DNA from: Dehalococcoidia bacterium
Lineage (GTDB): Bacteria; Chloroflexota; Dehalococcoidia; SM23-28-2; RBG-16-64-32
Length of the DNA: 64,000 nt
Assembly (NCBI GenBank): GCA_040877915.1
Contig: JBBDNA010000006.1
Location: 26,993 to 90,992 of the forward strand
Direction: 5' to 3'
Shown piece after piece: positions 21,489-35,383 of the stretch. Each line of letters opens with the position of its first letter. The stretch's first letter is position 1. The notes beneath the pieces are model-generated. The model had not been told where the DNA came from and did no database searches. It was given only the letters and a program-made list of their open reading frames with translations. The position numbers and the translations under genes are program-made.

Positions 21489-21517
21489 TTGACAACCCCT
21501 ACATGTAGTGCTATCTT
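21489..21517 (+). promoter_or_regulatory. Putative nrdR promoter with extended -10
   Basis: TTGACA 21489..21494, a 17-nt spacer whose last bases are TGc (21509..21511), then TATCTT at 21512..21517. It lies about 250 nt upstream of nrdR, followed by a GC hairpin (CGCCCCCT-cgctga-AGGGGGCG) at 21525..21546. Confidence 0.4.
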
Positions 21518-22925: not shown

Positions 22926-23453
22926 GTGATGAGTTCGCACTGTTTCGGCGCCCGCGTCTACGTGATCCGGCACTACGCATTGCGCTGGTCGAGGGACAAG
23001 CTGGCCCGAAAGTTGGTCGAGCGTGGCCATCGGTTACCGCTCGACGATAGTCTAGAACTACGCGAGGTCACGCGCGACGAAATCAAGCGCTGGGAACGCG
23101 GTGAATCCGAACCGTCGTACGTAACAAAGCGGCATGTGGCTATCGTGCTAAGGATACGCCACGAGATTCTGGATCCCGAAGAGCATCCAGGCGACATTTC
23201 GCCTGAGGGTCTCGTAGCCCTCGCCCGAGCTCGCGGACTCACACCTCCGCAGATAAACCAGTATTGGACACTCACGAAGCAGCGTGCGCTATTCAAAGGC
23301 AATCCCGGAATCGGCGAATGGATCTCGATAATCGAACAACTCAGTATTGCAGAGCAGGGCACGCTGTTCACTAGCGGGACTTGGTGCACGCACTGCGGTG
23401 GCTGGATCGAAGACGGCGACGCCGAGTGCCCGGACTGCGGGAACATAGAATGA
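22926..23453 (+). CDS. XRE-family HTH protein with C-terminal CxxC...CxxC zinc ribbon (CapH/DdrO-like candidate)
   Basis: HTH_XRE-like LARKLVERGH...EVTRDEIKRWERGESEPS. The C-terminus carries CTHCGGWIEDGDAECPDCG. Lower GC (~57%) than its flanks. ATGA overlap with the downstream peptidase gene. Confidence 0.55.
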   Translation: MMSSHCFGARVYVIRHYALRWSRDKLARKLVERGHRLPLDDSLELREVTRDEIKRWERGESEPSYVTKRHVAIVLRIRHEILDPEEHPGDISPEGLVALARARGLTPPQINQYWTLTKQRALFKGNPGIGEWISIIEQLSIAEQGTLFTSGTWCTHCGGWIEDGDAECPDCGNIE

Positions 23454-24238
23454 CACAACCCGAACTGCCTCTTCGGAATATGCCAGCGCACCGACCGGCA
23501 AAGGAGGCAGCCCTTGAACGCGCCCGCCAGATCCTGAGGGAATCTGGCATTGACGGACCCCCGGTCGACATCGAGCGCGTGGCCCGTCTAATGGGCACTG
23601 TCGCTGTCGAGGAAGCCAGGCTTGGCGATGTGGCTGCTTGTCTCCTCCCAGGAACGAGAGGCCATACGATTCTGATTAACCGGCGATCACACCCGCTCAG
23701 ACAACGGTTTTCCATAGCACATGAGATCGGTCATCTCATCCTCGGTGCTCGTGGAATTCGTTTCCGAGACATGCGGACGGGACCTGCTGAAAGGTTGTGT
23801 GATGAGCTCGCGGCGGAGCTACTCATGCCCCACGAGATATTTACCCGCGAGATGGACGCCAAGCCGGTATCCCTTGATACCATCTGCGATCTAGCCAACA
23901 CCTTTCAGACGGCGCTAGAGCCTGCCGCTATCCGTTTCGGCGCTCTTGTGTCGGCTCCGGTCCAGGTTGTGTATTGGGAGAAGGTCGAGGATCACCTTCG
24001 CATCAAGTGGACGAATGGAAAGCCAATGCTACCCCGCACTGCCACTATGGGCCTCTTGACCGACCGGGCATTCGGTCCTGCAGAGGCGTTCAATTCCGAT
24101 AGTGAGGAAGGGGTCACGACTTACGCACATTCTTCGCGCTCGAAAAGCCTCGACCTGATCTGCGAATCCAAAGGCTTCAGAGAGCGCCCGTACAGATATG
24201 TTCTGTCTTTGGTTCGCAGGGAAGTAGTGCACGGCTAG
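23450..24238 (+). CDS. ImmA/IrrE-family (COG2856, DUF955) zinc metallopeptidase
   Basis: HExxH motif SIAHEIGHLIL with downstream E (ELLMPHE). Start trimmed to ATG 23450, which overlaps the HTH gene stop. A classic XRE-HTH + ImmA pair. It ends 14 nt before nrdJ. Confidence 0.75.
   Translation: MTQPELPLRNMPAHRPAKEAALERARQILRESGIDGPPVDIERVARLMGTVAVEEARLGDVAACLLPGTRGHTILINRRSHPLRQRFSIAHEIGHLILGARGIRFRDMRTGPAERLCDELAAELLMPHEIFTREMDAKPVSLDTICDLANTFQTALEPAAIRFGALVSAPVQVVYWEKVEDHLRIKWTNGKPMLPRTATMGLLTDRAFGPAEAFNSDSEEGVTTYAHSSRSKSLDLICESKGFRERPYRYVLSLVRREVVHG
24192..24206 (+). promoter_or_regulatory. Palindrome ACAGA-TATGT-TCTGT upstream of nrdJ (candidate NrdR-box-like operator)
   Basis: A perfect 5-bp inverted repeat around an AT-rich core that contains the -10-like TATGTT, about 45 nt upstream of the nrdJ GTG. 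It resembles the ACAC/GTGT-armed NrdR box with one change per arm. Confidence 0.35.
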
Positions 24239-24251
24239 AGGAGGCCAACCA

Positions 24252-27119
24252 GTGACCATCACCCGACCAGACACCCGAACCCGACGACAGGCCAAGAACG
24301 GCGCCCACAAGCCGGCCGCCACCAACGGCAAGCACGCCCCGGCCCTCCGACAGCGCGAGCGGCTCATCCAGCGCCGCTTCACGACGCCGGAGGTCGACCC
24401 CTACGACGCGCTGGCGTGGGAGCTGCGCACCGCCGTCATCCAGGGCTCCGACGGCACGCCCGTTTTCGAGCAGAAGGACGTCGAGTTCCCCGTCGGCTGG
24501 TCGCAGAACGCGACGAACGTCGTCGCCTCCAAGTACTTCCGCGGCCCCCTCAGCGATTCGGCGGCGGCAGCGCCCGGTCGCAACGCGCCCGTGCGCGAGC
24601 GCTCCGTGAAGACGCTGATCGACCGCATCATCGACAACATCACGCGCTGGGGCCGCGAGGGCGGCTACTTCGCCGACGAAGACGAAGCCGCCGCCTTCCG
24701 CGACGAGTTGAAGCACATCCTGGTCAACCAGGTCGCCTGCTTCAACTCGCCCGTCTGGTTCAACCTCGGCATCGAGGAGAAGCCCCAGTGCTCCGCCTGC
24801 TTCATCCTGGCCATCGATGACGAGATGGACAGCATCCTGGAGTGGTACCGCACCGAAGGCAAGATCTTCAAGGGCGGCTCCGGCTCCGGCATCAACCTCT
24901 CGAACCTGCGCTCGTCCAGGGAGCGGCTGACCGCGGGCGGGCTGGCCTCGGGGCCGGTGTCGTTCATGCGCGGGGCGGACGCCATCGCCGGCACGATCAA
25001 GTCCGGCGGCAAGACCCGTCGCGCCGCCAAGATGGTCATCCTCGACGCCGGCCACCCGGACATCGAAGAGTTCATCGACTGCAAGGCGAAGGAGGAGCGC
25101 AAGGCCTACGCCCTGGGCGAGGCCGGCTACGACGTGACGCTGGACGGCGACGCCTGGATCTCCATCCAGTACCAGAACGCCAACAACTCCGTCCGCGTGG
25201 CCGACGACTTCATGCGCGCCTACGAGGAGGACGGCGAGTGGCAGACCCGCTACGTCACCAACGGCGAGCCGGCCAACACCTACCGCGCCCGCGAGCTGAT
25301 GCGTCGCATCGCCCAGGCGGCCTGGGAGTGCGCCGACCCCGGCATGCAGTACCACACCACGATCAACGACTGGCACACCTGCCCCAACACCGGGCCGATC
25401 ACCGCCTCCAACCCCTGCTCCGAGTACATGCACCTCGACAACTCCGCCTGCAACCTGGCCTCGATAAACCTGCTGAAGTTCCTCCGGGAGGAACAAGGGG
25501 AAGCGGAGGGCGGTCCTGTTCCTGGTACCTTGAACCCTGTTCCTGGCGTCGATGTCGGGGCCTACTTCGACATCGACGCCTATAGGCACACCTGCGGGGT
25601 CATGATCACGGCCCAGGAGATCATCGTCTCCAACTCCTCCTACCCGACCGAGAAGATCGCGAAGAACGCGGAGGACTACCGGCAGCTGGGGCTGGGCTAC
25701 TCCAACCTGGGCGCACTGCTGATGTCGCTGGGCACCCCGTACGACTCGGACGAGGGCCGCGCCCTGGCCGCCGCCCTCACCGCCGTCATGACCGGCCAGG
25801 CCTACGCCACCTCCGCCGCCATCGCCGCCCGCGTCGGGCCGTTCAAAGGCTACGAGCTGAACCGCGAGCCAATGCTGCGCGTCATCGAGAAGCACCGCGC
25901 CGCCACGAGCGAGATCGACGATGCGGAGGCCCCCCCTCCGCTCGTGGCGGCGGCCCGCCAGGCCTGGGACGAGGCGCTGGCCCTCGGGCAAGAGTACGGC
26001 TATCGAAACTCGCAGGCGACGGTCCTCGCGCCCACGGGCACGATCAGCTTCATGATGGACTGCGACACGACGGGTATCGAGCCGGATATCGCCCTGATCA
26101 AGTACAAGAACCTGGTCGGCGGCGGCCTGATGAAGATCGTCAACTCCTCGGTGCCGCGCGCCCTGCACGGGCTCGGCTACGACGAACAGGCGTCGGAGGC
26201 CATCCTGGCCCACATAGACGAGACCGGTACCATCGAGGGCGCGCCCGGCCTCCTCGACGAGCACCTCCCGGTGTTCGACTGCGCGTTCAAGCCGCAGAAC
26301 GGCGTGCGCACGGTCCACTGGACGGGTCACGTGCGGATGATGGGCGCGGTGCAGCCGTTCATTTCCGGCGCCATCTCCAAGACCGTCAACCTGCCGGAGG
26401 ATGCCAGCGTCGAGGAGATCGAGGAGGCGTACTACGAGGGCTGGCGGCACGGGCTGAAGGCGCTGGCCATCTACCGCGACGGCTCCAAGCGGGCGCAGGT
26501 CCTGAGCACGAGCAAGGACGGCGACGCGAAGGCCAAGGACGAGCCTGCGGGCCACCCGGTGCGACGCCGCCTCCCGGCGACCCGGACGTCGCTCACCCAC
26601 AAGTTCGCGATCGAGGGGCACGAGGGGTACATCACGGCCGGTCTGTACGAGGACGGCTCGCCGGGCGAGATCTTCGTGACGATGGCCAAAGAGGGGTCGA
26701 CGCTGTCCGGCATGCTGGACGCCTTCGCCACCTCCATCTCGCTGACGCTGCAGTACGGCGTGCCGCTGCACGACATGGTGAACAAGTTCTCGCACATGCG
26801 GTTCGAGCCATCGGGGCGGACGGAGAACGCCGAGATACCGGTGGCCCAGTCGATCGTCGACTACATCTTCCGCTGGCTGGCCTCGCAGTTCATGAGCGAG
26901 GAGGAGAAGGAGCAGTTCGGAGTGCTATCGCCGGCGGTGAAGGCGAAGATGATGGCGGCGGAGTACGGGACGCCCCCGGCGCTGGCCGGCAACGGCGCCA
27001 GCTACAACAACTCGGGGCAGACGGACGCGCCGCCCTGCGCCAGCTGCGGCTGGATCATGGTGCGCTGCGGCACCTGCTACCGCTGCGACAACTGCGGCAC
27101 GACGAGCGGCTGCGGCTAG
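24252..27119 (+). CDS. nrdJ: Class II (adenosylcobalamin-dependent) ribonucleotide reductase, long form (955 aa)
   Basis: Large RNR catalytic core (NSVRVADDFM, LAPTGTISFMMDCDTTGIEP, ISKTVNLP), a C-terminal CASCGW...CGTCYRCDNCG zinc ribbon, no nrdB/nrdF partner, nrdR upstream. GGAGG RBS then GTG. Confidence 0.85.
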   Translation: MTITRPDTRTRRQAKNGAHKPAATNGKHAPALRQRERLIQRRFTTPEVDPYDALAWELRTAVIQGSDGTPVFEQKDVEFPVGWSQNATNVVASKYFRGPLSDSAAAAPGRNAPVRERSVKTLIDRIIDNITRWGREGGYFADEDEAAAFRDELKHILVNQVACFNSPVWFNLGIEEKPQCSACFILAIDDEMDSILEWYRTEGKIFKGGSGSGINLSNLRSSRERLTAGGLASGPVSFMRGADAIAGTIKSGGKTRRAAKMVILDAGHPDIEEFIDCKAKEERKAYALGEAGYDVTLDGDAWISIQYQNANNSVRVADDFMRAYEEDGEWQTRYVTNGEPANTYRARELMRRIAQAAWECADPGMQYHTTINDWHTCPNTGPITASNPCSEYMHLDNSACNLASINLLKFLREEQGEAEGGPVPGTLNPVPGVDVGAYFDIDAYRHTCGVMITAQEIIVSNSSYPTEKIAKNAEDYRQLGLGYSNLGALLMSLGTPYDSDEGRALAAALTAVMTGQAYATSAAIAARVGPFKGYELNREPMLRVIEKHRAATSEIDDAEAPPPLVAAARQAWDEALALGQEYGYRNSQATVLAPTGTISFMMDCDTTGIEPDIALIKYKNLVGGGLMKIVNSSVPRALHGLGYDEQASEAILAHIDETGTIEGAPGLLDEHLPVFDCAFKPQNGVRTVHWTGHVRMMGAVQPFISGAISKTVNLPEDASVEEIEEAYYEGWRHGLKALAIYRDGSKRAQVLSTSKDGDAKAKDEPAGHPVRRRLPATRTSLTHKFAIEGHEGYITAGLYEDGSPGEIFVTMAKEGSTLSGMLDAFATSISLTLQYGVPLHDMVNKFSHMRFEPSGRTENAEIPVAQSIVDYIFRWLASQFMSEEEKEQFGVLSPAVKAKMMAAEYGTPPALAGNGASYNNSGQTDAPPCASCGWIMVRCGTCYRCDNCGTTSGCG

Positions 27120-27148
27120 ATTCGCCAAACCTCCCTTTGGGCGGGAGT

Positions 27149-27185
27149 GGCGCCCCCGGCAGGCGGGCGCCATTTCTGTCTCCGC
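27149..27185 (+). terminator. Putative terminator after nrdJ
   Basis: Imperfect GC inverted repeat GGCGCCC(c)-cggcag-(g)CGGGCGCC followed by ATTTCTGTCT. Sits 30 nt past the nrdJ stop. Confidence 0.35.
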
Positions 27186-27291
27186 TTACTTCGGCTGTAC
27201 CTGAGCCCCTGTAACGATCCCCCATCGCCGGCATCCTCACGTTGTCGCGGCGGGCCGCGTACCGGCACGCCGCACAGACTGGAGGATCCCG

Positions 27292-27852
27292 ATGAAGACA
27301 CTCATGGCACTGGCCCTCGCAGTTGGCGCGCTCATTCTCGTCGCCTGCTCGAGCGAAGGGGGCGGGCCAGCATTCGTCAGAGTGTCTGAAGGCACGTTGA
27401 AGCCCGGAAACGAAATCCCCGCGCCCACAGGTGACCCGGTCGTCACGCTCTCTGGCGAGGTCACACCGAACGTGGGCGACAGCCTGGAATTCGACAGGGA
27501 GACGATTGAGAGCATCGGCCTTATCGAATACACGGTCGACGACCCCTGGGAGAACGCCAGCGTGACCTACACCGGCGTCCTCCTCTCCGATCTGCTGGAG
27601 GTGGCCGGCGCGCCGTCCTCCGCGAGCGCCATCCACCTGGTGGCGCTCGACGATTACGCGGCTGACATCAGCCTGGCCGATGTCGAACGGCTGCCGATAA
27701 TGCTCGCCACCCGCTCCGACGGCGAGTACATGGAGGTCGTGGACGGCGGCCCCACCCGGATCGTCTACCCGTATCACGCCTATCCGGACCTGGAAGACGC
27801 CGCGACGAACGATCTCTGGGTATGGAGCATCGCCCGGATAGAGGTGCCATGA
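27292..27852 (+). CDS. Lipoprotein with molybdopterin-oxidoreductase-like (Oxidored_molyb-fold) domain
   Basis: Lipobox LILVAC-SS, then GVLLSDLLEVAG...ALDDYAADISLADV...LATRSDGEYM...GGPTRIVYPY, the pattern of YedY/sulfite-oxidase-fold periplasmic domains. GGAGG RBS. Confidence 0.5.
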   Translation: MKTLMALALAVGALILVACSSEGGGPAFVRVSEGTLKPGNEIPAPTGDPVVTLSGEVTPNVGDSLEFDRETIESIGLIEYTVDDPWENASVTYTGVLLSDLLEVAGAPSSASAIHLVALDDYAADISLADVERLPIMLATRSDGEYMEVVDGGPTRIVYPYHAYPDLEDAATNDLWVWSIARIEVP

Positions 27853-30617
27853 GCCAGGAGATCCCTCTAAGGCGGCGCCGCCTCTCTCCGGCGCAGATCG
27901 TCCTCATCGCGGCGATCAGCGTCCTGGTGAGCGCCATCGCCGTGCTCGCCGTCCGCGCCTCCTCCCAGCTTAGCGGCACCGCCCGCGAGTTTGAGAACAC
28001 CGGCATTGTTACGACTAACATGGCTAACATCCAGCGTGAGCTGCTCCTGCTGGAGATAGAGTCGGAGCGGTTCGTCCACGGGCCCTCCGATGACCCCGCT
28101 CCAGTCGAGCTGCCCCGCAGCCTCCTGGCGAACCAGCTGCGCCGGGCCCAGATCCGCGCCGAGGACGACGGCGAGCTAAGGGGCGCGCTCTCCGACATTC
28201 AGAAAACGCTGGGCCGGTATGACGTAGAGCTAGCCGGGTTCTCCGCGGCCGGTACGCCGGAGGAGGCTGAGGCGAGCCACGAAGCGCTGGAGGCGACCCT
28301 GGCCTCGGCCGAGGAGCAGGTCAAGGCCCTCTACGATAAAGAGGAAGGCCAATTCTTCAGCGCCGTGAGCGCCGGCATCAGCGCGCAGCGGGCATCCCAC
28401 AGGCTCCTGCTGGTAGGCGGCGGAGTCTTGCTGGCCGTCAGCTTGGGCCTCGTCGTCTCTCTCGGCCGCAGCGTCAGCAGCGACTTCAAGCGAGCCTACC
28501 ACCGGGTCCAGGAGGAGCTCTCGCAACGGGAGCGGGCCCTGGCGGAGCTGGGGCGAAAGGAAGAGGAGTTCCGGACGCTGGCCAGCGTCTCTCCGGCCCT
28601 GATCTTCCGGGCCGACAGCGAGGGGAATTGCACCTATGTGAACGAGCGGTGGAGGGAGTTTTCCGGCCTGTCCCGGGGAGCGGCTCTGGGCAGGGGCTGG
28701 GCGGCCGCGCTCCACCCGGAGGACAGGGACCGGGTCATTGCCCAGTTTCTAGAGGCGGCAGAGAAGAGCGCCGTATGGCAGACGGAGTACCGCTTCGTTC
28801 GGCCGGACGGCAGCTGCGCCTGGGTAAAGGGAGCGGCAGCGCCCCAGAAGTCGGAGGACGGCTCCGTCGCCGGATACGTCGGTACCCTCCTGGACATCAC
28901 GGAAAGCAAGGCGGCCGAGCAAGCGATTCGTGAGAGCGAGGAGCGCTTCCGCCAGCTGTTGAACCAGGCCGCGGACGCTATCTTCGTAACCGACGCGCAA
29001 GGAAGGTTCGTCGACGTCAACGAGGCCGCCTGTCAGAGCCTGGGCTACACGCGCGAGGAACTGGTCACGATGACGGTGCAAGACATAGCCGACCCGCAGG
29101 TATATGCGAATGCGCGGGAGGCCCTTGCCGGCGGCGCCACGGCTACGATCGAGACGGACGAGCGCCGGAAGGATGGCTCCACTGTGCCCGTTGAAGTCCG
29201 GATCAGGTACATCCAGAGCCGTGGCCAGCGCTTCGGGCTGGCCATCGCCCGCGACGTCAGCGAGCGCAAGGAGAGCGAGGCCGCCCTGCAACGAGCGAAC
29301 CAGGAGCTGGAAGACGACCGGCGAGAGATAAAGGCCCTCAACCGCTCGCTGGAGGAGAAGGTCCGGCAGCGCACAGCCGAGCTTGAGGTCTCCAACCGCG
29401 AGCTCCGGGAGCGCAACCGGGAGCTGACGGACGTCCGTGTTCTGGCCGCGACCGACGCGCTTACCGGCTTGCCCAATCACCGCGCCTTCCACGAGACCAT
29501 CCGCAAGATCACCGAGGAGACGGAAGGCGCAGGCGCGCCCCTGAGCCTGCTGATGCTGGATATCGATGGGTTCAAGCGCATCAACGACTCGCAGGGCCAC
29601 CTGGTGGGCGATCAGGTCCTGCGCGAGATCGCGGCCAGCCTCACGCGGCACGTTACACGGGACCGCGCCTATCGCTACGGCGGCGACGAGTTCGCCGTCA
29701 TATTGCCGCGCACAGGCCGCCTCGAGGCCCTGCGCGTCGCCGATCGCATCCGCCGCTCGGTCGACCGCCAGGTCAGAGTCGACGGCCGCGGCGTCACCAT
29801 CAGCCTGGGCGCGGCGGCCTACCCGGAGTCCGCCGGCTCCGCCGAGGAGCTGATCTACGGCGCCGACGCGGCGATGTACTGGGCCAAATCCGCCGGCAAG
29901 AACCGCGTGGGCGACTGGAGCAAGCTCATCCGCAGGCGCGATGAGGACGCCACGCCCTGGTACGTGGGCGATCGCGCCGTCAGAGCCCCCGACGCCGTGG
30001 CCGCGCTCGTCGCCGCGCTCACGGCCAAGGACCCCAGCACGAGCGCGCACACCGACCGTTGCTCCTGGTACTCGGCGCAGCTCGCGCGGACGCTGGGCCT
30101 CAGTGAAGAGGAGATATCGACGATCCGCCTCGCCTCCCTGCTGCACGACGTCGGCAAGATAGGCGTGCCGGACGAGATCCTGTTCAAACCGGGGCCCCTG
30201 AACGAGGATGAGTGGGCCGAGATGAAGAAGCACCCGGCGGCCGCTCTACACGTCCTGCGAGAGGTCCGGGCCATCACGGACGCCACTCCCGCCATCCTTC
30301 ACCACCACGAGCACTTCGACGGCTCCGGCTACCCCGACGGGCTGAAGGGCGAGAATATCCCCATCGCCTCACGGATACTGCTGGTAACGGACGCCTTTGA
30401 CGCCATGACCACTGACCGGCCCTACCGAAAGGCGATGCCCATCGAGCACGCCATCGGGGAGCTAACGCGTAACAAGGGTAGCCAGTTCGACCCCAGGATC
30501 GTCGACGCCTTCCTCAAGATAATCGAAGGCTCCGGGGTTTACGAGCCGCACTCTCACGAGAGCGATGGCACGCCTTCCGGGGCGCAGCCGTCTCTGGCGG
30601 GGGGGAACGCGGGGTAG
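27849..30617 (+). CDS. Membrane-anchored PAS/PAC - GGDEF - HD-GYP cyclic-di-GMP signalling protein
   Basis: ATGA-coupled to the lipoprotein gene. Has one TM, coiled coils, about three PAS/PAC repeats, an intact GGDEF site (RYGGDEF) and an HD-GYP domain (HDVGKIGVPDEIL...HHHEHFDGSGYP). Confidence 0.85.
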   Translation: MSQEIPLRRRRLSPAQIVLIAAISVLVSAIAVLAVRASSQLSGTAREFENTGIVTTNMANIQRELLLLEIESERFVHGPSDDPAPVELPRSLLANQLRRAQIRAEDDGELRGALSDIQKTLGRYDVELAGFSAAGTPEEAEASHEALEATLASAEEQVKALYDKEEGQFFSAVSAGISAQRASHRLLLVGGGVLLAVSLGLVVSLGRSVSSDFKRAYHRVQEELSQRERALAELGRKEEEFRTLASVSPALIFRADSEGNCTYVNERWREFSGLSRGAALGRGWAAALHPEDRDRVIAQFLEAAEKSAVWQTEYRFVRPDGSCAWVKGAAAPQKSEDGSVAGYVGTLLDITESKAAEQAIRESEERFRQLLNQAADAIFVTDAQGRFVDVNEAACQSLGYTREELVTMTVQDIADPQVYANAREALAGGATATIETDERRKDGSTVPVEVRIRYIQSRGQRFGLAIARDVSERKESEAALQRANQELEDDRREIKALNRSLEEKVRQRTAELEVSNRELRERNRELTDVRVLAATDALTGLPNHRAFHETIRKITEETEGAGAPLSLLMLDIDGFKRINDSQGHLVGDQVLREIAASLTRHVTRDRAYRYGGDEFAVILPRTGRLEALRVADRIRRSVDRQVRVDGRGVTISLGAAAYPESAGSAEELIYGADAAMYWAKSAGKNRVGDWSKLIRRRDEDATPWYVGDRAVRAPDAVAALVAALTAKDPSTSAHTDRCSWYSAQLARTLGLSEEEISTIRLASLLHDVGKIGVPDEILFKPGPLNEDEWAEMKKHPAAALHVLREVRAITDATPAILHHHEHFDGSGYPDGLKGENIPIASRILLVTDAFDAMTTDRPYRKAMPIEHAIGELTRNKGSQFDPRIVDAFLKIIEGSGVYEPHSHESDGTPSGAQPSLAGGNAG

Positions 30618-30627
30618 CGGCGGCGGC

Positions 30628-31773
30628 CTAAAGGCGGCGCAGGACGGGCCGCGGCAGCCTGGCCCGCAGGTACTCGGCCAGCGCCTTCACGTAGCGCGCC
30701 CCGCTCTGGCGCACCATGTAGTGGCCGCGCTCGCTGTGCCAGAAGCCGGCGCTGCGGCCTATCTCAGCCAGGATGTCGCCCATCTTCTCCTGCGAGAAGT
30801 CGTCGGCGCTGCGGCACAGCTCCAGGACATCCGGTAGCACCTGGTGCAGGGCGCCGGCCCCCAGCGGCTTCTGGATCACGTATTCCTTCGGATCGTCGAA
30901 CGCGCTTTGCCAGCGCTCCCGCGCCGCCCGCCAGTAGTTGAGCAGCAGCTTCCCCGCTTCCTCGTCCGTCAACCGCTTGACGAAGCCGTCCCGCACAACG
31001 GGGTCCAAAGACGACACCATACTGTGCTGTCGCATCAGGTGGCTGGGGCGCCGCTTCTCGCCCGGCATCAGGATGATCCCGTACCAGGGGCTGGAGGTAT
31101 CGCCGTTGAGGATGTCGCACAGCTTCGTGGCGCGACCGCGCAGGAAGTTCTTCTCCCCTTCCCGCTCCAGCAGCGTCGCCCCCTCGGACTCCAGCATTGT
31201 GAGCAGGTGGCGGTCGACGACGTCCGTGGGCACGCCCTTCTGGCGGGTGTTGATCACGTGGAAGTAGCGCATCTCCTCGTAGGCGTCTATCCCCTCGACG
31301 ATGGTCACCGGCAGGGGGTACTCGCTGAGCCAGCCGGCGTTGTCCTTGGTCAGAGCCATCTGCAGCCCGAACAGCCGGTGCTGGCCGTCCACCAGCCACA
31401 TGTCCACGCTGGCCGGGATCGTCAGCATCCCGGGTTCACCGCTGGCGCCGTCGAAGCCGGCCGGCTCGAAGGTGGCGCGGTCGGGCTGCCGGATGCACAG
31501 CAGCAGCGAGGTTGGCAGCACCCCTTCTTCGTGCCGCATGTAGGAGGACACCTGTCGCAGCCGCGACTGTGTGAGGGGACGCTGGTAGCCCTGCTTGCGG
31601 TCGTGCCTGTACGTATCGGGCCGGCAGCGGCCCAGGAGGTCCCTGAGCGGGAAGACGGCGGCATAGAGGTTGACGTCCGGCCTCTTCTGGCGGAACCGCA
31701 CGGCGAAGGCGCGCAGTACCGTTCGCGCGTCCGTCTGCTGGGTCTGTTGCGCAGCCGAGGTAGGGGATGTCAT
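30628..31773 (-). CDS. DGQHR-domain protein (DndB-like, ParB/Srx-fold) - orphan
   Basis: Motif MWLVDGQHRLFGL plus an upstream GYQRPL, 381 aa. No dndACDE, ssp or pbe partner genes in the window. Divergent from the second nrdJ. Confidence 0.7.
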   Translation of the reverse strand: MTSPTSAAQQTQQTDARTVLRAFAVRFRQKRPDVNLYAAVFPLRDLLGRCRPDTYRHDRKQGYQRPLTQSRLRQVSSYMRHEEGVLPTSLLLCIRQPDRATFEPAGFDGASGEPGMLTIPASVDMWLVDGQHRLFGLQMALTKDNAGWLSEYPLPVTIVEGIDAYEEMRYFHVINTRQKGVPTDVVDRHLLTMLESEGATLLEREGEKNFLRGRATKLCDILNGDTSSPWYGIILMPGEKRRPSHLMRQHSMVSSLDPVVRDGFVKRLTDEEAGKLLLNYWRAARERWQSAFDDPKEYVIQKPLGAGALHQVLPDVLELCRSADDFSQEKMGDILAEIGRSAGFWHSERGHYMVRQSGARYVKALAEYLRARLPRPVLRRL

Positions 31774-31850
31774 AGCCTTCTCCTATATCTGCAAGCGCCT
31801 GTGGTAAACGTCAGGCTGAGCGAGCGATTTTCCTTCTGGGGCGCGGGTTT

Positions 31851-31861
31851 CTGGCAGAATT
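31851..31861 (+). promoter_or_regulatory. Palindrome TTCTGgCAGAA in the DGQHR/nrdJ2 divergent intergenic region
   Basis: Perfect inverted repeat about 20 nt upstream of the extended -10 gTGcTATACT (31881..31886) of nrdJ2. It shares CAGA/TCTG half-sites with the nrdJ1 palindrome. Confidence 0.35.
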
Positions 31862-31899
31862 CCCGTCGACTTGCCGGTGCTATACTTAGGATTGCCACC

Positions 31900-34311
31900 A
31901 TGACTATACGCCAACCGAGCGGCGAGGCCAAGATACCCTTTTCCGAAAACGCCCGCCTTGTCCTGGAGCGGCGCTACCTGGCCAGGGACGCGGACGGACG
32001 GCCCGCTGAGACCCCTGAGCAGATGCTCCGCCGCGTCGCCCACAACGTGGCCCAGGCCGAGCGTTCTTACAAGCCGCTCGAGGCTATCGACGACGCCGCG
32101 CGCTGGGAAGAGCGCTTCTACGAGCTGATGGCGCGGCTGGAGTTCCTCCCCAACTCGCCGACCTTGATGAACGCCGGCCGCGAGCTGCAGCAGCTCTCCG
32201 CCTGCTTCGTGCTCCCCGTCCCCGATAGCATCGAGGGCATATTCCAGGCGATCAAGGACACCGCCCGCATCCACCAGTCCGGTGGCGGCACCGGCTTCGC
32301 CTTCTCCCGTCTGCGGCCCGAAGGCGACCGCGTCCAATCGACGATGGGCGTGGCCTCCGGACCGGTCTCGTTCATCAAGGTGTTCGACGCCGCTACCGAG
32401 GCCATCAAGCAAGGCGGTACCCGCCGCGGCGCCAACATGGGCATCCTGGCCGTAACCCACCCCGACATCGAGAAGTTCATCACGCTCAAGAGCGACATGC
32501 GCACGCTCACCAACTTCAACATCTCCGTGGCCCTGACCGAGGAGTTCATGACCGCCGTGGAAGAGGACCGCGAGTACGAGCTGGTGAACCCCCGCAGCGG
32601 CGAGAGCGCCGGCCAGCGCCGCGCCCGCCACGTCTTCGACCTGCTGGTGGCCAACGCCTGGCGCAACGGCGACCCCGGCATCGTGTTTATCGACCGCATC
32701 AACCGCGACAACCCTACCCCAAACGTTGGCGAGATCGAGGCTACGAACCCCTGCGGCGAGCAGCCGCTGCTCCCCTACGAGTCCTGCAACCTCGGCTCCC
32801 TCAACCTCGCCAGGTTCGTCCGCGGCAACGGCTCGAAGAGCAAGCTCGACTGGAAGCGCCTCGCCGAGGTCATCCCCCAGTGCGTCCGCTTCCTCGACGA
32901 CGTCATCGACGTCAACCGCTACCCGATCGAGGAGATCGACCAGGCCACGAAGCTCACCCGCAAGATCGGCCTGGGCGTGATGGGCTGGCACGACGCCCTC
33001 CTCCAGCTCGGCGTGCCCTACGACTCCGAGGAGGCGCTGGCCCTGGGCGAGGAGGTGATGCGCTTCGTCCAGGAGAAGGCCAACGAGGCGTCGCTGGACC
33101 TAGGCCGCGAGCGCGGGACCTTCCTCGCCTTCGAAGGCTCCCGCTACGACCCGCACAACCCCTACCGCAACTCGACGCGCACCACCGTCGCCCCCACCGG
33201 CACGCTGTCCATCATCGCCGCCTGCTCGTCGGGCATCGAGCCGCTGTTCTCGCTCGCCTACACCCGCCGCCACTACCTCGACCCCGACGACCCCTCGAAG
33301 CTCACGGAGCTGACCGAGGCCAACGAGCACTTCGTCCGCGTCGCGAAGGCCGAGGGGTTTTACTCCGACGACCTGATGCAGCAGCTGGCGGCCGGCGGCA
33401 GCCTGCGCGACCGCGACGACGTCCCCGACGCCGCCAAGCGGCTGTTCGTCACCGCGCACGACATCTCGCCGGAGTGGCACGTGCGCATGCAGGCCGCCTT
33501 CCAGCGCCACACCGATAACGCCGTCTCCAAGACGATCAACTTCCCCTTCGCCGCCACAGAGGCCGACGTGGCCTCCGCCTACTGGCTGGCCTTCCGCGAG
33601 GGCTGCAAGGGGATGACGATCTACCGCGAGGGCTCCCGCCCGTTCTCGGTGCTGTCGCACGCGGCGCTGAACGTCAAGGGCCCGGAGCAGGAGACCGAAG
33701 AGGCGCTGGCCGAGATCGAGGGGATCATCGCCACGACGGAGCGGCCGCGCCCCTACCGCCAGCACCTCCCCGACGAGCGGCGTTCGATCACGCACAAGTT
33801 CCGCGTCGGCGACCAGGAGGGGTACATCACCGCCGGCCTGTACGAGGACGGCCGCCCGGGCGAGATCTTCGTGAAGATCGCCAAGGAGGGGTCGACGGTG
33901 TCGGGGCTGATGGACGCCGTGGCCCTGCTGACCTCCGTGACGCTGCAGTACGGCGTGCCGGTGCAGGACCTGGCCCGCAAGCTGAAGAACACCCGCTTCG
34001 AGCCCTACGGCCGCACCAACAACCCGGACATCCCCTGGGCGACCTCGGTCGTCGACTACGTGTTCCGCTGGCTGGAGCGCAAGTTCTCGCCGGAGACCGC
34101 CGGCGCCGACGCCTCCGCCCACCCAGCACCCCCGCTCGCCCTGAGCGAGTCGAAGGGCCGAGCCAACCCCGCTCACCCTGAGCCTGTCGAAGGGGGAGCG
34201 GGGCGACGCGCCGAGGCCACCGGCCTGGGCTGCCCGGACTGCGGCGCCCTGCTGGTGTACCAGGAGGGGTGCCTGGTCTGCCGCTCCTGCGGCTTCAACA
34301 AGTGCGGGTAG
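31900..34311 (+). CDS. nrdJ: Class II (adenosylcobalamin-dependent) ribonucleotide reductase, short paralog (803 aa)
   Basis: Start trimmed to ATG 31900 (MTIRQPSGEAKIPFSENARLVLERRYL). The ORF-track N-extension overlaps the DGQHR gene on the opposite strand. The core is paralogous to 24252..27119 and carries a C-terminal CPDCGALLVYQEGCLVCRSCGFNKCG zinc ribbon. Confidence 0.85.
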   Translation: MTIRQPSGEAKIPFSENARLVLERRYLARDADGRPAETPEQMLRRVAHNVAQAERSYKPLEAIDDAARWEERFYELMARLEFLPNSPTLMNAGRELQQLSACFVLPVPDSIEGIFQAIKDTARIHQSGGGTGFAFSRLRPEGDRVQSTMGVASGPVSFIKVFDAATEAIKQGGTRRGANMGILAVTHPDIEKFITLKSDMRTLTNFNISVALTEEFMTAVEEDREYELVNPRSGESAGQRRARHVFDLLVANAWRNGDPGIVFIDRINRDNPTPNVGEIEATNPCGEQPLLPYESCNLGSLNLARFVRGNGSKSKLDWKRLAEVIPQCVRFLDDVIDVNRYPIEEIDQATKLTRKIGLGVMGWHDALLQLGVPYDSEEALALGEEVMRFVQEKANEASLDLGRERGTFLAFEGSRYDPHNPYRNSTRTTVAPTGTLSIIAACSSGIEPLFSLAYTRRHYLDPDDPSKLTELTEANEHFVRVAKAEGFYSDDLMQQLAAGGSLRDRDDVPDAAKRLFVTAHDISPEWHVRMQAAFQRHTDNAVSKTINFPFAATEADVASAYWLAFREGCKGMTIYREGSRPFSVLSHAALNVKGPEQETEEALAEIEGIIATTERPRPYRQHLPDERRSITHKFRVGDQEGYITAGLYEDGRPGEIFVKIAKEGSTVSGLMDAVALLTSVTLQYGVPVQDLARKLKNTRFEPYGRTNNPDIPWATSVVDYVFRWLERKFSPETAGADASAHPAPPLALSESKGRANPAHPEPVEGGAGRRAEATGLGCPDCGALLVYQEGCLVCRSCGFNKCG

Positions 34312-34390: not shown

Positions 34391-35383
34391 ATGATCGAAA
34401 GACTCGAAGGGTTTGCCCTCCTAGACCTCATGAGGAAATTGCCTGAGCAGTCGAAGTATGACTGCAAGAGAGATCTTACTCTCGACAGCCACGACCGAAA
34501 GGCGGAGCTGATCAAAGACATCACCAGTATCGCGAACGCGCACGGAGACGAGGTGGGCTACCTTTTCTTCGGTGTTGATCCAGTAAGTAGCGAACTCGCG
34601 GTTGGTATCACCCAGCGCCATGACGACGCGACTCTTCAGCAAATAGTGAATTCGAAACTGGAGCGGCCCGTCTCCTTCCTGTACTACGAAACTGAGGTGA
34701 ACGGTAGCTGGGTGGGAGTAGCTGTGATTCCGCCGAGTATCACCCGTCCGCACATCATTAAGGCGCAGTACGGGAGGCTTCGCGCGGGTCAGATTCCCAT
34801 ACGCAGGGGCTCAAGCACGACGTGGGCAACCAGCGAGGACCTCCAACTGATGCTGGAACGCCAGCGTGCTCGGGAGTCCCAAGGTCAGGATATAGCTGAA
34901 CTCGTGCGAAGAGCCGGGGATCCCGCTGTGCCCGTGGCACAACTTGCTCTCGAAGTATGGCAGCTAGGATCGCAGGTCGCGCCGCCCGAACATCTTGAAT
35001 GGCTACGCCTGGAAATCGCTGGGTTCAAGACGGGAAGCGTGGTGCCTGATTACCGTGAAGTAGCCGGCCACGTCTCTGTCTTTGAAATAAATCTGAAAGC
35101 ACTGTCCTTCCACAATCTCGATTCCATCGTTCAGACTGAGCCAGATAAATTCAAGGAGGTGCCCCTGAGACTAGGGCAGTCAATCGCTGAGCTAGAGGAC
35201 ATGCTCGGCCCTGATGGATCGGGCCAGGGCGCGGGATTTTTCCAGACTCGGCGTCAGTTCGAGACGCAGAACGGGGAGGCTGTGGAGGCATACCTCTACT
35301 TCAAGCCTAGTGCTGTCAGACGAGTCGTCACATTGATAAGGAATCGCATTGCGCGTTTCCTTATGACGCTTCATGCAAGTTAA
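34391..35383 (+). CDS. AlbA_2 / Schlafen-like divergent AAA-ATPase-fold domain protein (low-GC)
   Basis: DITSIANAHGDEVGYLFFGVDPVSSELAVGI fits the AlbA_2 (PF04326) core (AFANt.GGyliiGVdd). GC about 52% vs about 68% elsewhere. C-terminal half has no recognisable domain. Confidence 0.5.
   Translation: MIERLEGFALLDLMRKLPEQSKYDCKRDLTLDSHDRKAELIKDITSIANAHGDEVGYLFFGVDPVSSELAVGITQRHDDATLQQIVNSKLERPVSFLYYETEVNGSWVGVAVIPPSITRPHIIKAQYGRLRAGQIPIRRGSSTTWATSEDLQLMLERQRARESQGQDIAELVRRAGDPAVPVAQLALEVWQLGSQVAPPEHLEWLRLEIAGFKTGSVVPDYREVAGHVSVFEINLKALSFHNLDSIVQTEPDKFKEVPLRLGQSIAELEDMLGPDGSGQGAGFFQTRRQFETQNGEAVEAYLYFKPSAVRRVVTLIRNRIARFLMTLHAS

What the first reader, a model, noticed from the sequence alone, without database searches (positions are those of the whole stretch)
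24252..34311. Two paralogous class II (B12-dependent) RNRs, 955 aa and 803 aa, within 10 kb
Both ORFs share the RNR core and a C-terminal Cys4 ribbon, for example ITAGLYEDGSPGEIFVTMAKEGSTLSG vs ITAGLYEDGRPGEIFVKIAKEGSTVSG. They differ by about 150 aa at the N-terminus and have different promoter contexts. The first is downstream of the HTH/ImmA pair. The second has a near-leaderless TGCTATACT promoter divergent from a DGQHR gene. A single nrdR lies upstream of both. Duplicate same-class RNRs are uncommon. One copy may be stress- or defence-island-associated, or of phage origin.
Basis: seen in the sequence. Interest (0 to 1): 0.55.

Follow-up and report, generated by a model that had tools for sequence, protein, structure and literature searches.

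The report
Two native B12 ribonucleotide reductases
A Dehalococcoidia (Chloroflexota) chromosome carries two intact, anciently diverged B12-dependent ribonucleotide reductases behind one nrdR gene. This kind of doubling is already documented in over a thousand genomes, and neither copy is of recent phage or defence-island origin. The long copy lies in an operon with a DNA-damage-sensor-like protease that recurs next to these genes across the group.

Summary
RNR1 (24252-27119, 955 aa) and RNR2 (31900-34311, 803 aa) are both complete class II reductases, 31% identical, from different NrdJ subfamilies (NCBIfam PRK06556 and PRK08665).

Neither is a pseudogene, an assembly duplicate or a recent phage import:
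- GC3 (0.94) and codon adaptation (0.80) are the same in both.
- Ka/Ks is 0.08-0.11 and Ks matches ftsA and ftsZ.
- The order nrdR-RNR1-RNR2 is conserved in at least 12 related Chloroflexota loci.
- The best phage identity is 45-46%.

RNR2 sits where the single nrdJ lies in other Dehalococcoidia; RNR1 lies between it and nrdR. Both carry the diphosphate-type (F/P)NSP loop and the six-cysteine C-terminal domain, so mixed NDP/NTP specificity does not explain the pair.

The difference I can see is regulatory. The only NrdR-box pair overlaps the promoter upstream of nrdR, and six tightly packed genes run from there to RNR1. RNR2 has its own near-leaderless promoter.

Two further findings:
- The HTH/ImmA pair belongs to an IrrE/CapP-like protease subfamily found next to nrdR and nrdJ in about 25 loci.

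Multiple NrdJ per genome is published (1,108 of 24,059 genomes). Interest is moderate.

The parts
21465..21511 (+). Tandem NrdR boxes (21465-21480 CCACTAAATGTTGTGT; 21496-21511 CCCCTACATGTAGTGC), 31 bp start to start
   Evidence: They are the only two matches in the 64 kb within 5 mismatches of the consensus I used from memory. Equivalent pairs lie upstream of nrdR in L001, L004, L008, L013 and L021.
21489..21517 (+). Sigma-70-type promoter TTGACA-17-TGcTATCTT, overlapped by NrdR box 2
   Evidence: It matches 10 of 12 consensus positions and has a TG extension. The stretch 21450-21589 is 88% identical to the closest relative, L081.
21766..22359 (+). nrdR (197 aa): Zn ribbon plus ATP-cone repressor
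   Evidence: Pfam Zn_ribbon_NrdR and ATP-cone. NCBIfam TIGR00244 at 186 bits against a cut-off of 125.
22356..22667 (+). orf103, overlapping the nrdR stop codon; no known family
   Evidence: It is conserved in L081 (78% identity, Ka/Ks 0.36). No Pfam or NCBIfam hit.
22664..22888 (+). orf74, with an ATGA overlap onto the orf103 stop codon; unknown function
   Evidence: Read from the sequence. It lies in the stretch that aligns to L081 (21748-22890), where L081 has an 82-aa gene at the matching position.
22926..23453 (+). HTH175: N-terminal XRE-like HTH plus C-terminal CxxC...CxxC Zn ribbon; candidate repressor partner of the protease
   Evidence: Pfam HTH_3 E = 0.034 and Zn_Ribbon_1 E = 0.12, both below cut-off. 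The AF2 model has pLDDT 66.7. Its N-terminal ~80 residues superpose on cI/C-protein HTH domains (TM 0.81-0.84 normalised to the target) and the top, weak, hit is DdrO at E = 0.024. Only 3 proteins of this family are in the 5.8-billion-protein database. Homologues precede the protease in L085 and L086. GC3 is 0.66.
23450..24238 (+). IrrE/PprI/CapP-type M78 metallopeptidase (262 aa; HEIGH motif; ATGA overlap with the HTH175 stop)
   Evidence: Pfam Peptidase_M78 5e-15. PADLOC CapP 5e-31. The exact protein is P0121, annotated as an ImmA/IrrE family metallo-endopeptidase. The AF2 model has pLDDT 90.8. Full-length Foldseek matches to PprI 8SLN (E = 7e-12), IrrE 3DTI and CapP 7T5T.
24252..27119 (+). 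RNR1: long NrdJ (955 aa) with Ribonuc_red_2_N, catalytic barrel, TSCPD and Cys-rich tail
   Evidence: The catalytic ACFI, NPCSE and ACNLAS motifs and the FNSP loop are present in the window copy and all eight orthologues checked, one of which has NPCAE in place of NPCSE. The exact protein is P0001. Ka/Ks is 0.106. The start lies 13 nt after the protease stop codon.
27292..30617 (+). Variable slot: molybdopterin-binding-domain ORF (27292-27852) and PAS-PAS-GGDEF-HD-GYP protein (27822-30617)
   Evidence: Window 27247-29444 has no counterpart in L081, which has HD and FIST genes there.
30628..31773 (-). Solitary DGQHR (DndB/DpdB-like) gene, divergent from RNR2
   Evidence: TIGR03187 at 125 bits against a cut-off of 58.85. 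PADLOC DpdB 1.4e-19. It is conserved in the same place in L001-L005, L021, L081 and L082. Ka/Ks is 0.078.
31878..31886 (+). Extended -10 element TGCTATACT, 13 nt before the RNR2 ATG (near-leaderless); no Shine-Dalgarno sequence
   Evidence: A TATA(C/A)T lies 9-13 nt before the ATG in L002, L003, L004, L005 and L021, while the flanking sequence has diverged.
31900..34311 (+). RNR2: Thermotoga-type NrdJ (803 aa) with Ribonuc_red_lgN, barrel, TSCPD and six-Cys tail. Residues ~620-740 are of RNR1-type origin
   Evidence: ACFV, NPCGE, SCNLGS and PNSP motifs. Ka/Ks is 0.083. Mosaic profile.
34391..35383 (+). Schlafen-AlbA_2/AbiTii gene in a strain-specific slot downstream of RNR2
   Evidence: Pfam AbiTii and SLFN_AlbA_2. 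PADLOC AbiTii. GC3 0.61 and CAI 0.37. Absent from L081 and from L001-L080.

Best explanation
The window is from a high-GC Dehalococcoidia (Chloroflexota) chromosome. Just after the cell-division cluster (ftsQ-ftsA-ftsZ) it carries nrdR and two functional adenosylcobalamin-type ribonucleotide reductases of different NrdJ subfamilies.

Shown:
- Both are intact, under strong purifying selection, and compositionally alike and host-like.
- Both have been co-inherited in the order nrdR-RNR1-RNR2 across a clade.
- RNR2 occupies the position of the single nrdJ found in other Dehalococcoidia (ftsA-ftsZ-nrdR-nrdJ). RNR1 lies between nrdR and it, and its closest non-Chloroflexota relatives in my small sample are actinomycete NrdJs.
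- Both carry the diphosphate-type apical loop and the six-cysteine C-terminal domain.
- A roughly 120-aa TSCPD segment of RNR2 derives from an RNR1-type gene.

Inferred mechanism:
- The two enzymes carry out the same chemistry: NDP reduction, with active-site re-reduction through the Cys-rich tail, presumably by thioredoxin. They are kept because they are expressed differently.
- NrdR binds the tandem boxes that overlap the promoter at 21489-21517. It thereby controls one tightly packed operon: nrdR, orf103, orf74, HTH175, the IrrE-like protease and RNR1.
[quoted passage not shown] That would raise RNR1 when DNA is damaged.
- RNR2 is transcribed on its own from a near-leaderless promoter that lacks NrdR boxes, and would give a separately set, probably basal, supply.
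For: Identity and integrity.

Native status:
- GC3 0.94 and CAI 0.80 for both copies.
- Ka/Ks 0.106 and 0.083, with Ks 0.45-0.47, equal to ftsA and ftsZ against the closest relative L081.

Conserved tandem: L001, L004, L005, L008, L013, L021, L081 and L082 hold nrdR, RNR1 and RNR2. L003, L007 and L009 hold RNR1-RNR2 on contigs cut upstream. L083 has both RNRs but no nrdR call.

Ancestral position: ftsA-ftsZ-nrdR-nrdJ(RNR2-type) or nrdR-nrdJ in most of the 80 genome loci; 60 of them have nrdR upstream.

Trees: RNR1 orthologues are monophyletic and sister to Streptomyces and Nonomuraea. Phage sequences fall outside. The RNR1 and RNR2 subtrees are congruent. Best phage identity is 45-46%, against 62-88% for Chloroflexota orthologues.

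Phosphate motif and Cys-rich domain.

NrdR boxes and promoter.

Operon packing: gene overlaps or gaps of at most 37 nt, and no plus-strand terminator-like site between nrdR and RNR1.

RNR2 promoter.

Protease.

nrd linkage of the protease subfamily:
- All 17 full-length metagenomic matches lie beside nrdR or nrdJ wherever the contig reaches far enough (three are too short to tell).
- Only 1 of 63 matches confined to the peptidase domain does so.
- Further cases are L032, L036, L084 and L165-L167.

Published mechanism of the analogues: bioRxiv 10.1101/2022.04.27.489752, PMC10904395 and PMC13228613.
Against: - There are no expression data. Co-transcription of nrdR through RNR1 is inferred only from gene packing and the absence of predicted terminators.
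- No operator for HTH175 was found. The promoter stretch 21450-21589 is 88% identical to L081, which lacks the pair, so nothing there marks an added operator.
- HTH175 is only weakly an XRE-type HTH.
- The HTH and protease genes have atypical codon usage (GC3 0.60-0.66 against 0.94). They are absent from the closest relative L081 and from most genomes with two NrdJs. So the pair is not required for keeping two NrdJs.
- In L165 and L166 the pair lies downstream of nrdJ, and in L084 and L088 no HTH partner is evident.
- Phosphate specificity is predicted from a four-residue motif, not measured.
- Nothing shows which enzyme is the main one.
- The NrdR-box consensus I scanned with is recalled from memory (Rodionov and Gelfand 2005).
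Confidence: 0.62

Rival explanations
1. The two NrdJs are kept because they differ in substrate phosphorylation level. One would reduce NDPs and the other NTPs, as in 69% of genomes with more than one NrdJ (Schell et al. 2021).
For: This is the published majority pattern: 760 of 1,108 genomes with several NrdJs mix the two motif types.
Against: RNR1 has F-N-S-P and RNR2 has P-N-S-P. Both are the diphosphate motif, and F at position 1 is explicitly included in it by the paper. The motif is the same in all eight RNR1 orthologues checked, and PNSP was found in 60 of the 81 RNR2-type sequences scanned; my pattern missed the loop in the other 21, so those are unscored. The locus belongs to the 235-genome 'diphosphate only' minority.
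Confidence: 0.05
2. One copy is a recent import from a phage or a defence island, carried along with the neighbouring ImmA/HTH pair or the DGQHR/AbiTii genes.
For: ImmA, HTH and AbiTii have foreign-looking composition (GC3 0.60-0.66, CAI 0.34-0.42). PADLOC matches CapP, DpdB and AbiTii. Phages often carry NrdJ.
Against: Both RNR genes have host-like GC3 and CAI and a Ks equal to that of core genes. Both have conserved synteny in at least 12 relatives. The best phage identity is 45-46%, and phage sequences fall outside both Chloroflexota groups. The variable segments stop at the RNR gene borders; the one exception is the first ~35 codons of RNR1.
Confidence: 0.03
3. The HTH/IrrE-like pair has no regulatory role for the RNR genes. 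It would be a toxin-antitoxin-like or mobile two-gene cassette that tends to land in the nrd operon. The two RNRs would then differ only through NrdR control versus a constitutive promoter, or be simply redundant.
For: XRE/COG2856 pairs are described as toxin-antitoxin modules in the literature (titles listed). The cassette has atypical codon usage and a patchy distribution; it is absent from L081, L082 and L083. No operator was found.
Against: The full-length protease subfamily, with its C-terminal ESKGF...RYVLSL motif, was found beside nrdR or nrdJ in about 25 loci that are only ~30% identical to one another. These span low-GC and high-GC lineages and both NrdJ types, often with overlapping stop and start codons. 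Generic M78 hits were not nrd-linked (1 of 63). Random insertion would not give this specificity.
Confidence: 0.2
4. The two enzymes work together physically. Because RNR2 acquired an RNR1-type TSCPD segment, the C-terminal domains of one enzyme could re-reduce or oligomerise with the other. Cross-subunit electron transfer and dependence of oligomerisation on the C-terminal domain are known for NrdJd.
For: RNR2 residues ~620-740 are 47-72% identical to RNR1 in sliding 40-residue windows (62% over the TSCPD block), but about 24% identical to other RNR2-type proteins. In S. nassauensis NrdJd the C-terminal domain mediates oligomerisation and cross-subunit reduction.
Against: The same mosaic is present in loci that show only one NrdJ (L010, L011, L014-L019, L031), so it is not tied to present-day coexistence. 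The terminal zinc-finger part remains RNR2-type. There is no interaction evidence.
Confidence: 0.07

Closest known systems
Genomes with more than one NrdJ (Schell, Nouairia, Steiner, Weber, Lundin, Loderer 2021, J Biol Chem 297:101008; PMC8365446)
   Same: Two class II RNR genes in one genome. The paper counted 1,108 such organisms among 24,059 GTDB representatives. 235 of them had only diphosphate-type enzymes, the category this locus falls in.
   Different: As far as I read it, the paper gives no gene order, regulation or Chloroflexota case. Here the pair is a conserved tandem behind nrdR with separate promoters, and part of the C-terminal domain has been exchanged between the two lineages.
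NrdJd of Stackebrandtia nassauensis and the actinomycete long NrdJ (Loderer et al. 2017, PMC5704485); Streptomyces nrdR-nrdJ operon (from memory: Borovok et al.)
   Same: RNR1 is of this type. It has about 950 aa, passes PRK06556, is 50% identical to Streptomyces and Nonomuraea NrdJ, has the FNSP loop and has the six-Cys C-terminal domain with the same spacing. It lies downstream of nrdR.
   Different: RNR1 is in a Chloroflexota genome. It is separated from nrdR by four small genes including a protease, and it coexists with a second NrdJ.
Thermotoga maritima NrdJ (PDB 1XJE and related entries)
   Same: It is the closest solved structure to RNR2 (E = 2e-129). It shares the PNSP diphosphate loop and the NPCGE and CNLGS catalytic motifs.
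   Different: The crystallised T. maritima chain has 644 residues and ends after the barrel. RNR2 has a further ~215-residue C-terminal domain whose TSCPD part is RNR1-like.
DdrO/IrrE (PprI) of Deinococcus and CapH/CapP of CBASS and other defence operons
   Same: A three-domain HExxH M78 protease (peptidase, linker, GAF-like domain) encoded next to a small HTH protein. Foldseek gives full-length matches to 8SLN, 3DTI and 7T5T, and PADLOC matches CapP at 5e-31. The known members are activated by ssDNA and cleave their repressor.
   Different: Here the pair sits inside an nrdR-nrdJ operon, on the same strand as the reductase and with stop/start overlaps, rather than controlling repair or immune genes. 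The partner carries a C-terminal Zn ribbon and is barely recognisable as XRE. Some nrd-linked loci show no HTH partner at all. Sequence identity to IrrE and CapP is only 18-22%.

Membership tests
Class II (adenosylcobalamin-dependent) RNR, NrdJ | RNR ten-stranded barrel with the radical cysteine on the finger loop (NPC[GS]E), the redox cysteine pair, and Asn/Glu | tested here: met
   Pfam Ribonuc_red_lgC at 1.7e-140 and 1.8e-129. ACF[IV], NPC[SG]E and [AS]CNL[AG]S are present in both copies. All eight RNR1 orthologues have all three (one with NPCAE). Most of the 81 RNR2-type sequences scanned have NPCGE and xCNLxS; the exceptions include the intein-interrupted L021 gene.
Class II (adenosylcobalamin-dependent) RNR, NrdJ | Score above the curated cut-off of an NrdJ equivalog model | tested here: met
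   RNR1: NF005122 at 1373 bits against a cut-off of 859. RNR2: NF006417 at 1033 against 961. Both also pass TIGR02504.
Class II (adenosylcobalamin-dependent) RNR, NrdJ | Activity depends on adenosylcobalamin and needs no radical-generating subunit | not testable with these tools
   Needs an enzyme assay. Nothing resembling either RNR occurs elsewhere in the window. I did not search for NrdB, NrdF or NrdG genes, and the rest of the genome was not available.
NrdJ with cysteine-rich C-terminal domain (Loderer et al. 2017) | Six conserved cysteines at the C-terminal end (C-x2-C-x9-C-x2-C-x2-C-x5-C in S. nassauensis) | tested here: met
   RNR1 has ...CASCGWIMVRCGTCYRCDNCGTTSGCG, the same spacing plus one extra Cys. 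RNR2 has ...[26 protein letters not shown], with x4 in the last spacer. The pattern is conserved in orthologues.
Diphosphate-specific NrdJ (Schell et al. 2021) | Apical loop (P/F)-N-S-P rather than P-[ASG]-G-R | tested here: met
   FNSP in RNR1 and PNSP in RNR2. Actual substrate preference was not measured.
NrdR regulon | Tandem 16-bp NrdR boxes about 31-32 bp apart in the promoter of the regulated gene | tested here: met
   Met for the promoter upstream of nrdR (21465-21511) and for the equivalent position in five relatives. The consensus is recalled from Rodionov and Gelfand 2005.
NrdR regulon | NrdR boxes directly upstream of each RNR gene | tested here: not met
   No match within 5 mismatches lies in the 150 nt upstream of RNR1 or in the DGQHR-RNR2 intergenic region, and relatives show no box pair at those places. 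RNR1 can be under NrdR control only by co-transcription. RNR2 shows no sign of it.
IrrE/PprI/CapP-type repressor-cleaving metallopeptidase | HExxH zinc site with a downstream Glu, in an M78 domain | tested here: met
   HEIGH and the downstream E are invariant in a 40-sequence alignment. Pfam PF06114.
IrrE/PprI/CapP-type repressor-cleaving metallopeptidase | Three-domain fold: peptidase, helical linker and C-terminal GAF-like domain | tested here: met
   The model has pLDDT 90.8. Foldseek aligns 247-286 columns to 8SLN, 3DTI and 7T5T, with TM 0.57-0.67 and E = 7e-12 to 2e-10.
IrrE/PprI/CapP-type repressor-cleaving metallopeptidase | Adjacent XRE-family HTH repressor as substrate | tested here: inconclusive
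   HTH175 has HTH_3 at E = 0.034, below cut-off. In a low-confidence model the N-terminal 80 residues superpose on cI-type HTH domains, and DdrO is the top hit at only E = 0.024. L165 and L166 partners carry Pfam HTH_3. L084 and L088 have no recognisable HTH partner.
IrrE/PprI/CapP-type repressor-cleaving metallopeptidase | Activation by single-stranded DNA and cleavage of the repressor | not testable with these tools
   Biochemical. Known for CapP and PprI only.
LexA (SOS) regulon | GAAC-N4-GTTC box in the promoter | tested here: not met
   There are no matches in the 64-kb window. The box is present about 80-110 nt upstream of the single nrdJ in 12 related loci.
Phage-derived or defence-island cargo gene | Foreign composition, patchy presence among close relatives, nearest homologues in phages or mobile elements | tested here: not met
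   Not met for either RNR. Composition and patchy presence are met for AbiTii and, in part, for the HTH/protease pair.

The most novel reading that the evidence does not exclude
A dedicated IrrE/CapP-like protease, usually with a small HTH partner, is a conserved but undescribed component of nrdR-nrdJ operons in Dehalococcoidia. It would give these bacteria a LexA-independent way to raise ribonucleotide reduction when single-stranded DNA accumulates. It would act on its HTH partner or, in loci without one, perhaps on NrdR itself. In this genome that would make RNR1 the damage-inducible isoenzyme and RNR2 the separately expressed one. Sister lineages with a single nrdJ would reach the same end with a LexA-type box in front of nrdJ.
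Probability: 0.35. Interest if true: 0.65.

Novelty: new member of a known kind. Interest (0 to 1): 0.4.

Why it matters
Schell et al. 2021 left open why some organisms keep two seemingly redundant NrdJ enzymes. Their answer, mixed NDP/NTP specificity, covers 69% of cases. This locus is a clean example of the unexplained remainder: two diphosphate-type enzymes, held side by side behind one nrdR for a long evolutionary time, whose visible difference is their regulation.

The work also turned up three things that could be followed up:
- A protease subfamily of the DNA-damage-sensing IrrE/CapP kind that is tied to nrdR and nrdJ.
- LexA-type boxes before nrdJ in sister lineages.
- A domain-level exchange between the two NrdJ lineages, which bears on how the reductant-accepting C-terminal domain evolves.

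None of this changes the basic verdict that the pair itself is an ordinary, native and already documented kind of gene content.

Tried and rejected
- **Riboswitch or other known RNA element near either gene.** An Rfam E-value scan of 19500-36500 gave only chance-level eukaryotic miRNA and snoRNA hits.
- **NrdR boxes directly upstream of RNR1 or RNR2.** None found, in the window or in relatives.
- **LexA box in the window.** None found.
- **Assembly duplication.** The two genes share no long near-identical DNA; the best stretch is 295 bp at 77%.
- **Recent gene conversion within this genome.** Cross-paralogue DNA identity is the same within the genome (76.6%) as between the window and L081 (74.7-76.3%), so the exchange is old.
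- **A link between the protease and an N-terminal extension of RNR1 as a possible cleavable pro-peptide.** Rejected. All RNR1 orthologues have variable 13-38-aa tails before the conserved I(E/Q)R(R/F)FT motif, whether or not a protease gene is present. The ~100-aa extension of Dehalococcoidales nrdJ also appears to be present in L029, which has no protease gene.
- **Operator search for HTH175.** Only a weak GC-rich palindrome inside orf74, and nothing in the 37-nt gap before the gene.
- **Exact-sequence look-ups.** RNR2 and P0001 returned nothing, so I did not retrieve the source contig itself.
- **Literature look-up of PDB 7B9P.** Nothing found. I could not name the organism of RNR1's closest solved structure.
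- **HTH175 homologues.** Only 3 in the database, so the model is weak.
- **Literature linking NrdR with ImmA, IrrE, M78 or COG2856.** No listed paper held NrdR together with any of those terms. 'Ribonucleotide' does not occur in the CapH/CapP paper.

Full report
**1. What is there**

The window has about 68% G+C. Around the finding it encodes, in order:
- ftsQ (16309-17127), ftsA (17149-18414), ftsZ (18423-19607) and a DUF3048 protein (20015-21166).
- nrdR (21766-22359), followed by two small ORFs (22356-22667 and 22664-22888).
- A 175-aa HTH-like ORF (22926-23453) and an M78 peptidase (23450-24238).
- RNR1 (24252-27119).
- A molybdopterin-binding-domain ORF and a PAS-GGDEF-HD-GYP protein (27292-30617).
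- A DGQHR gene on the minus strand (30628-31773).
- RNR2 (31900-34311).
- A Schlafen-AlbA_2/AbiTii gene (34391-35383), an ABM monooxygenase, and further on a WYL regulator.

RNR1 is identical to a protein annotated in an NCBI 'Dehalococcoidia bacterium' MAG on a 352-kb contig. All 80 genome loci retrieved with RNR2 are metagenome-assembled genomes, and the great majority are labelled Chloroflexota.

**2.

Both ORFs have the stated sizes and are complete class II reductases. Each has the barrel domain, a TSCPD domain and a Cys-rich tail, and each passes the curated cut-off of a different NCBIfam NrdJ model.

They are 31% identical. The only DNA-level similarity is a 295-bp stretch at 77%, so this is not an assembly duplication.

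The catalytic cysteines, Asn and Glu are present in both copies and in the orthologues. The closest solved structures are a 925-residue long NrdJ (7B9P) for RNR1 and Thermotoga maritima NrdJ for RNR2.

- Only about 69 aa of the length difference is N-terminal; the rest is internal insertions.
- The 'Cys4 ribbon' is the six-cysteine domain described by Loderer et al. 2017.
- The quoted peptide comes from an atypically similar segment (see section 6).

**3. Both copies are native**

- GC3 (0.94) and a codon-adaptation index against 16 other genes of the window (0.80) are the same for the two genes. They are as high as or higher than for ftsA, ftsZ and nrdR.
- Against the closest relative found (L081, a 430-kb JGI contig) both genes have Ka/Ks of about 0.1. 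Their Ks of 0.45-0.47 equals that of ftsA and ftsZ.
- The order nrdR-RNR1-RNR2 recurs in L001, L004, L005, L008, L013, L021, L081 and L082. L003, L007 and L009 show RNR1-RNR2 on contigs cut upstream. L083 has both RNRs but no nrdR call.
- In most other Dehalococcoidia the arrangement is ftsA-ftsZ-nrdR-nrdJ with an RNR2-type gene. So RNR2 holds the ancestral position and RNR1 lies between it and nrdR.
- In a neighbour-joining tree the Chloroflexota RNR1 sequences form one clade, sister to Streptomyces and Nonomuraea NrdJ (50% identity). The RNR1 and RNR2 subtrees of the two-NrdJ genomes have matching branching orders.
- Phage sequences fall outside both groups. The best phage identities are 45% (an uncultured 485-kb phage) and 46% over 71% of the length.

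What is foreign-looking is the neighbourhood. HTH175, the peptidase and AbiTii have GC3 of 0.60-0.66. Alignment to L081 shows three replaced segments that abut the RNR genes: 22891-24355, 27247-29444 and 34312-35866.

**4. It is a documented kind of gene content, but in the unexplained minority**

Schell et al. 2021 found more than one NrdJ in 1,108 of 24,059 representative genomes. In 760 of these, a diphosphate-type and a triphosphate-type enzyme are combined; 235 have diphosphate types only.

The determinant is the apical loop: (P/F)NSP for diphosphate and P[ASG]GR for triphosphate. RNR1 has FNSP and RNR2 has PNSP, and so do the orthologues where my pattern scan could score the loop. Complementary phosphate specificity does not explain this pair.

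Both copies also keep the cysteine-rich domain. This differs from the Frankia cases, where only one of two NrdJd enzymes has it.

**5. The visible difference is regulation**

*RNR1 side.*
- A scan with the NrdR-box consensus gives exactly two matches in 64 kb. They lie 31 bp apart, at 21465-21480 and 21496-21511. They bracket and overlap a TTGACA-17-TGcTATCTT promoter about 250 nt upstream of nrdR.
- Relatives have the same pair upstream of nrdR and none before either RNR.
- From nrdR to RNR1 the six genes overlap or lie at most 37 nt apart. No plus-strand terminator-like site is predicted between them. Co-transcription is an inference.

*RNR2 side.*
- RNR2 is cut off from that promoter by a minus-strand gene.
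- It has TGCTATACT 13 nt before its ATG and no Shine-Dalgarno sequence.
- A TATA(C/A)T at 9-13 nt is kept in five relatives while the flanks diverge.
- Where RNR2 directly follows RNR1 (L006-L009, L013), a TG(G/A)TAAACT-like element and a Shine-Dalgarno sequence precede it.

No riboswitch or other Rfam element was found.

**6. The quoted motif marks an old exchange between the paralogues**

Sliding-window identities show a mosaic in RNR2:
- Residues 1-580 resemble other RNR2-type proteins (L029, L036, a Rubrobacter plasmid gene) at mostly 40-80%, and RNR1 at 10-50%.
- Residues ~620-740, the TSCPD domain, resemble RNR1 at 47-72% and Streptomyces at 40-53%, but those RNR2-type proteins at only 5-38%.
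- The last ~40 residues revert to the RNR2 pattern.

All RNR2 genes of the high-GC clade share the mosaic, including loci that show only one NrdJ. Mean identity in the segment is 0.55 to Chloroflexota RNR1, 0.47 to actinomycetes and 0.24 to other RNR2-type proteins. Bootstrap support for grouping them with Chloroflexota RNR1 to the exclusion of actinomycetes is 74 of 100.

The exchange is old. Within-genome and between-genome cross-paralogue DNA identities are equal.

**7. The HTH/ImmA pair is not a random neighbour**

*What the protease is.*
- It matches PADLOC CapP at 5e-31.
- A confident model (pLDDT 90.8) aligns over its full length with Deinococcus PprI/IrrE and with CapP.
- Those proteases are activated by single-stranded DNA and cleave an XRE-type repressor.

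*How tightly it is linked to nrd genes.*
- Homologues about 30% identical, sharing a C-terminal ESKGF...RYVLSL motif, sit directly before nrdJ in L084 (RNR1-type) and in L032 and L036 (RNR2-type, low-GC Dehalococcoidales).
- I scanned metagenome contigs with an alignment of these four. All 17 full-length matches were beside nrdR or nrdJ wherever the contig reached far enough; three were too short to tell.
- Of 63 matches confined to the peptidase domain, only one was in an nrd context.
- Three further distant full-length homologues on long contigs were also nrd-linked. Two are arranged nrdR-nrdJ-HTH_3-M78 and one nrdR-orf-M78 followed by an 879-aa gene with no Pfam record.

*The partner.*
- A small HTH-like ORF precedes the protease in most loci.
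- The window's partner, HTH175, is only weakly recognisable and belongs to a family of three known proteins.
- I found no paper connecting NrdR or RNR with this protease family.

The association is shown. The function is inferred by analogy: damage-triggered relief of repression of the operon that ends in RNR1.

Points against are that no operator was found, that the cassette is missing from the closest relative and from most two-NrdJ genomes, and that some loci lack an HTH partner.

In a sister group with a single nrdJ in the locus, a B. subtilis-type SOS box (GAAC-N4-GTTC, cited in PMC4234289) overlaps a TATACT-type element roughly 80-110 nt before nrdJ in 12 loci. The window has none. That Chloroflexi LexA uses this box is my recollection of Fernandez de Henestrosa et al. 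2002, which I did not verify here.

**8. Verdict**

The pair is real, functional by every sequence criterion, and native. It belongs to a published category, and its specific features are conserved tandem order, separate promoters and a swapped TSCPD segment. The phage or defence-island idea is rejected. A stress link is plausible for RNR1 only, through an nrd-linked IrrE/CapP-like module that I believe is undescribed. Interest is moderate (0.4).

Noticed in passing
L010, L011, L014-L020, L031, L071, L072 (e.g. L010 9910-9921): A GAAC-N4-GTTC (B. subtilis-type LexA) box, followed in most of these loci by a TATACT-like -10 element, lies roughly 80-110 nt upstream of the single RNR2-type nrdJ and downstream of nrdR. 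This suggests SOS control of nrdJ in this Tepidiformaceae-like group. The window has no such box.
   Followed up: partly
window 21159-21410: The DUF3048-nrdR intergenic region holds a repeat-rich ~280-bp insert that is absent from the closest relative L081. It has a 48-nt direct repeat (21253-21300 and 21323-21370), an inverted partner at 21159-21196, and CCACTGT heptad repeats at 21383-21410. It looks like a small MITE-like element.
   Followed up: partly
window 30628-31773 (minus strand): A solitary DGQHR (DndB/DpdB-like) gene with no other dnd or dpd genes nearby. It is conserved divergently from RNR2 in at least 8 relatives and under strong purifying selection (Ka/Ks 0.078). Its role is unknown. 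DndB is a DNA-binding regulator (from memory), so a regulatory role for RNR2 is conceivable.
   Followed up: partly
L021 10958-11935: The RNR2 orthologue of L021 is interrupted by an intein with a LAGLIDADG homing endonuclease (Pfam Intein_splicing, LAGLIDADG_3), at or near the catalytic NPCGE site. One RNR1 homologue (P0093, 1214 aa) also carries an intein domain.
   Followed up: yes
window 34391-35864: A Schlafen-AlbA_2/AbiTii fusion gene (GC3 0.61) fills a strain-specific slot right after RNR2. The ORF listed at 35373-35864 has GC3 0.48 and GC1 0.85, so it is probably read in the wrong frame. A 35467-35841 ORF in another frame (stop-to-stop frame GC3 0.82) is the likelier gene, with no family hit.
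   Followed up: partly
window 27822-30617; L001, L002, L081: Cyclic-di-GMP signalling genes (PAS-GGDEF-HD-GYP; in L081 HD, FIST and GGDEF-HD) recur between RNR1 and the DGQHR gene. Their sensor parts differ between relatives.
   Followed up: no
window 39263-40222 (minus strand): An HTH_11-WYL-WCX regulator, the domain set of PafBC, DriD and CapW, is conserved about 5 kb downstream of RNR2 in L003, L004, L021 and L082. Members of this class sense ssDNA in other bacteria (PMC12041258 abstract), so the region may hold a second damage-responsive regulator.
   Followed up: no
L036 9587-10030; L032 1048-1400; L029 ~9776-10000: RNR2-type nrdJ genes of low-GC Dehalococcoidales carry a conserved ~100-140-aa N-terminal extension (…AESxGIRDR…LTxQVIERxE…LPGME…) with no Pfam match. 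It is present with or without the protease gene.
   Followed up: partly
window 22356-22667: orf103 overlaps the nrdR stop codon. It is conserved in L081 (78% identity, Ka/Ks 0.36), and a weak match (45% over 65 residues) turned up on the opposite strand near an unrelated M78 gene in L147. No family or function is known.
   Followed up: no
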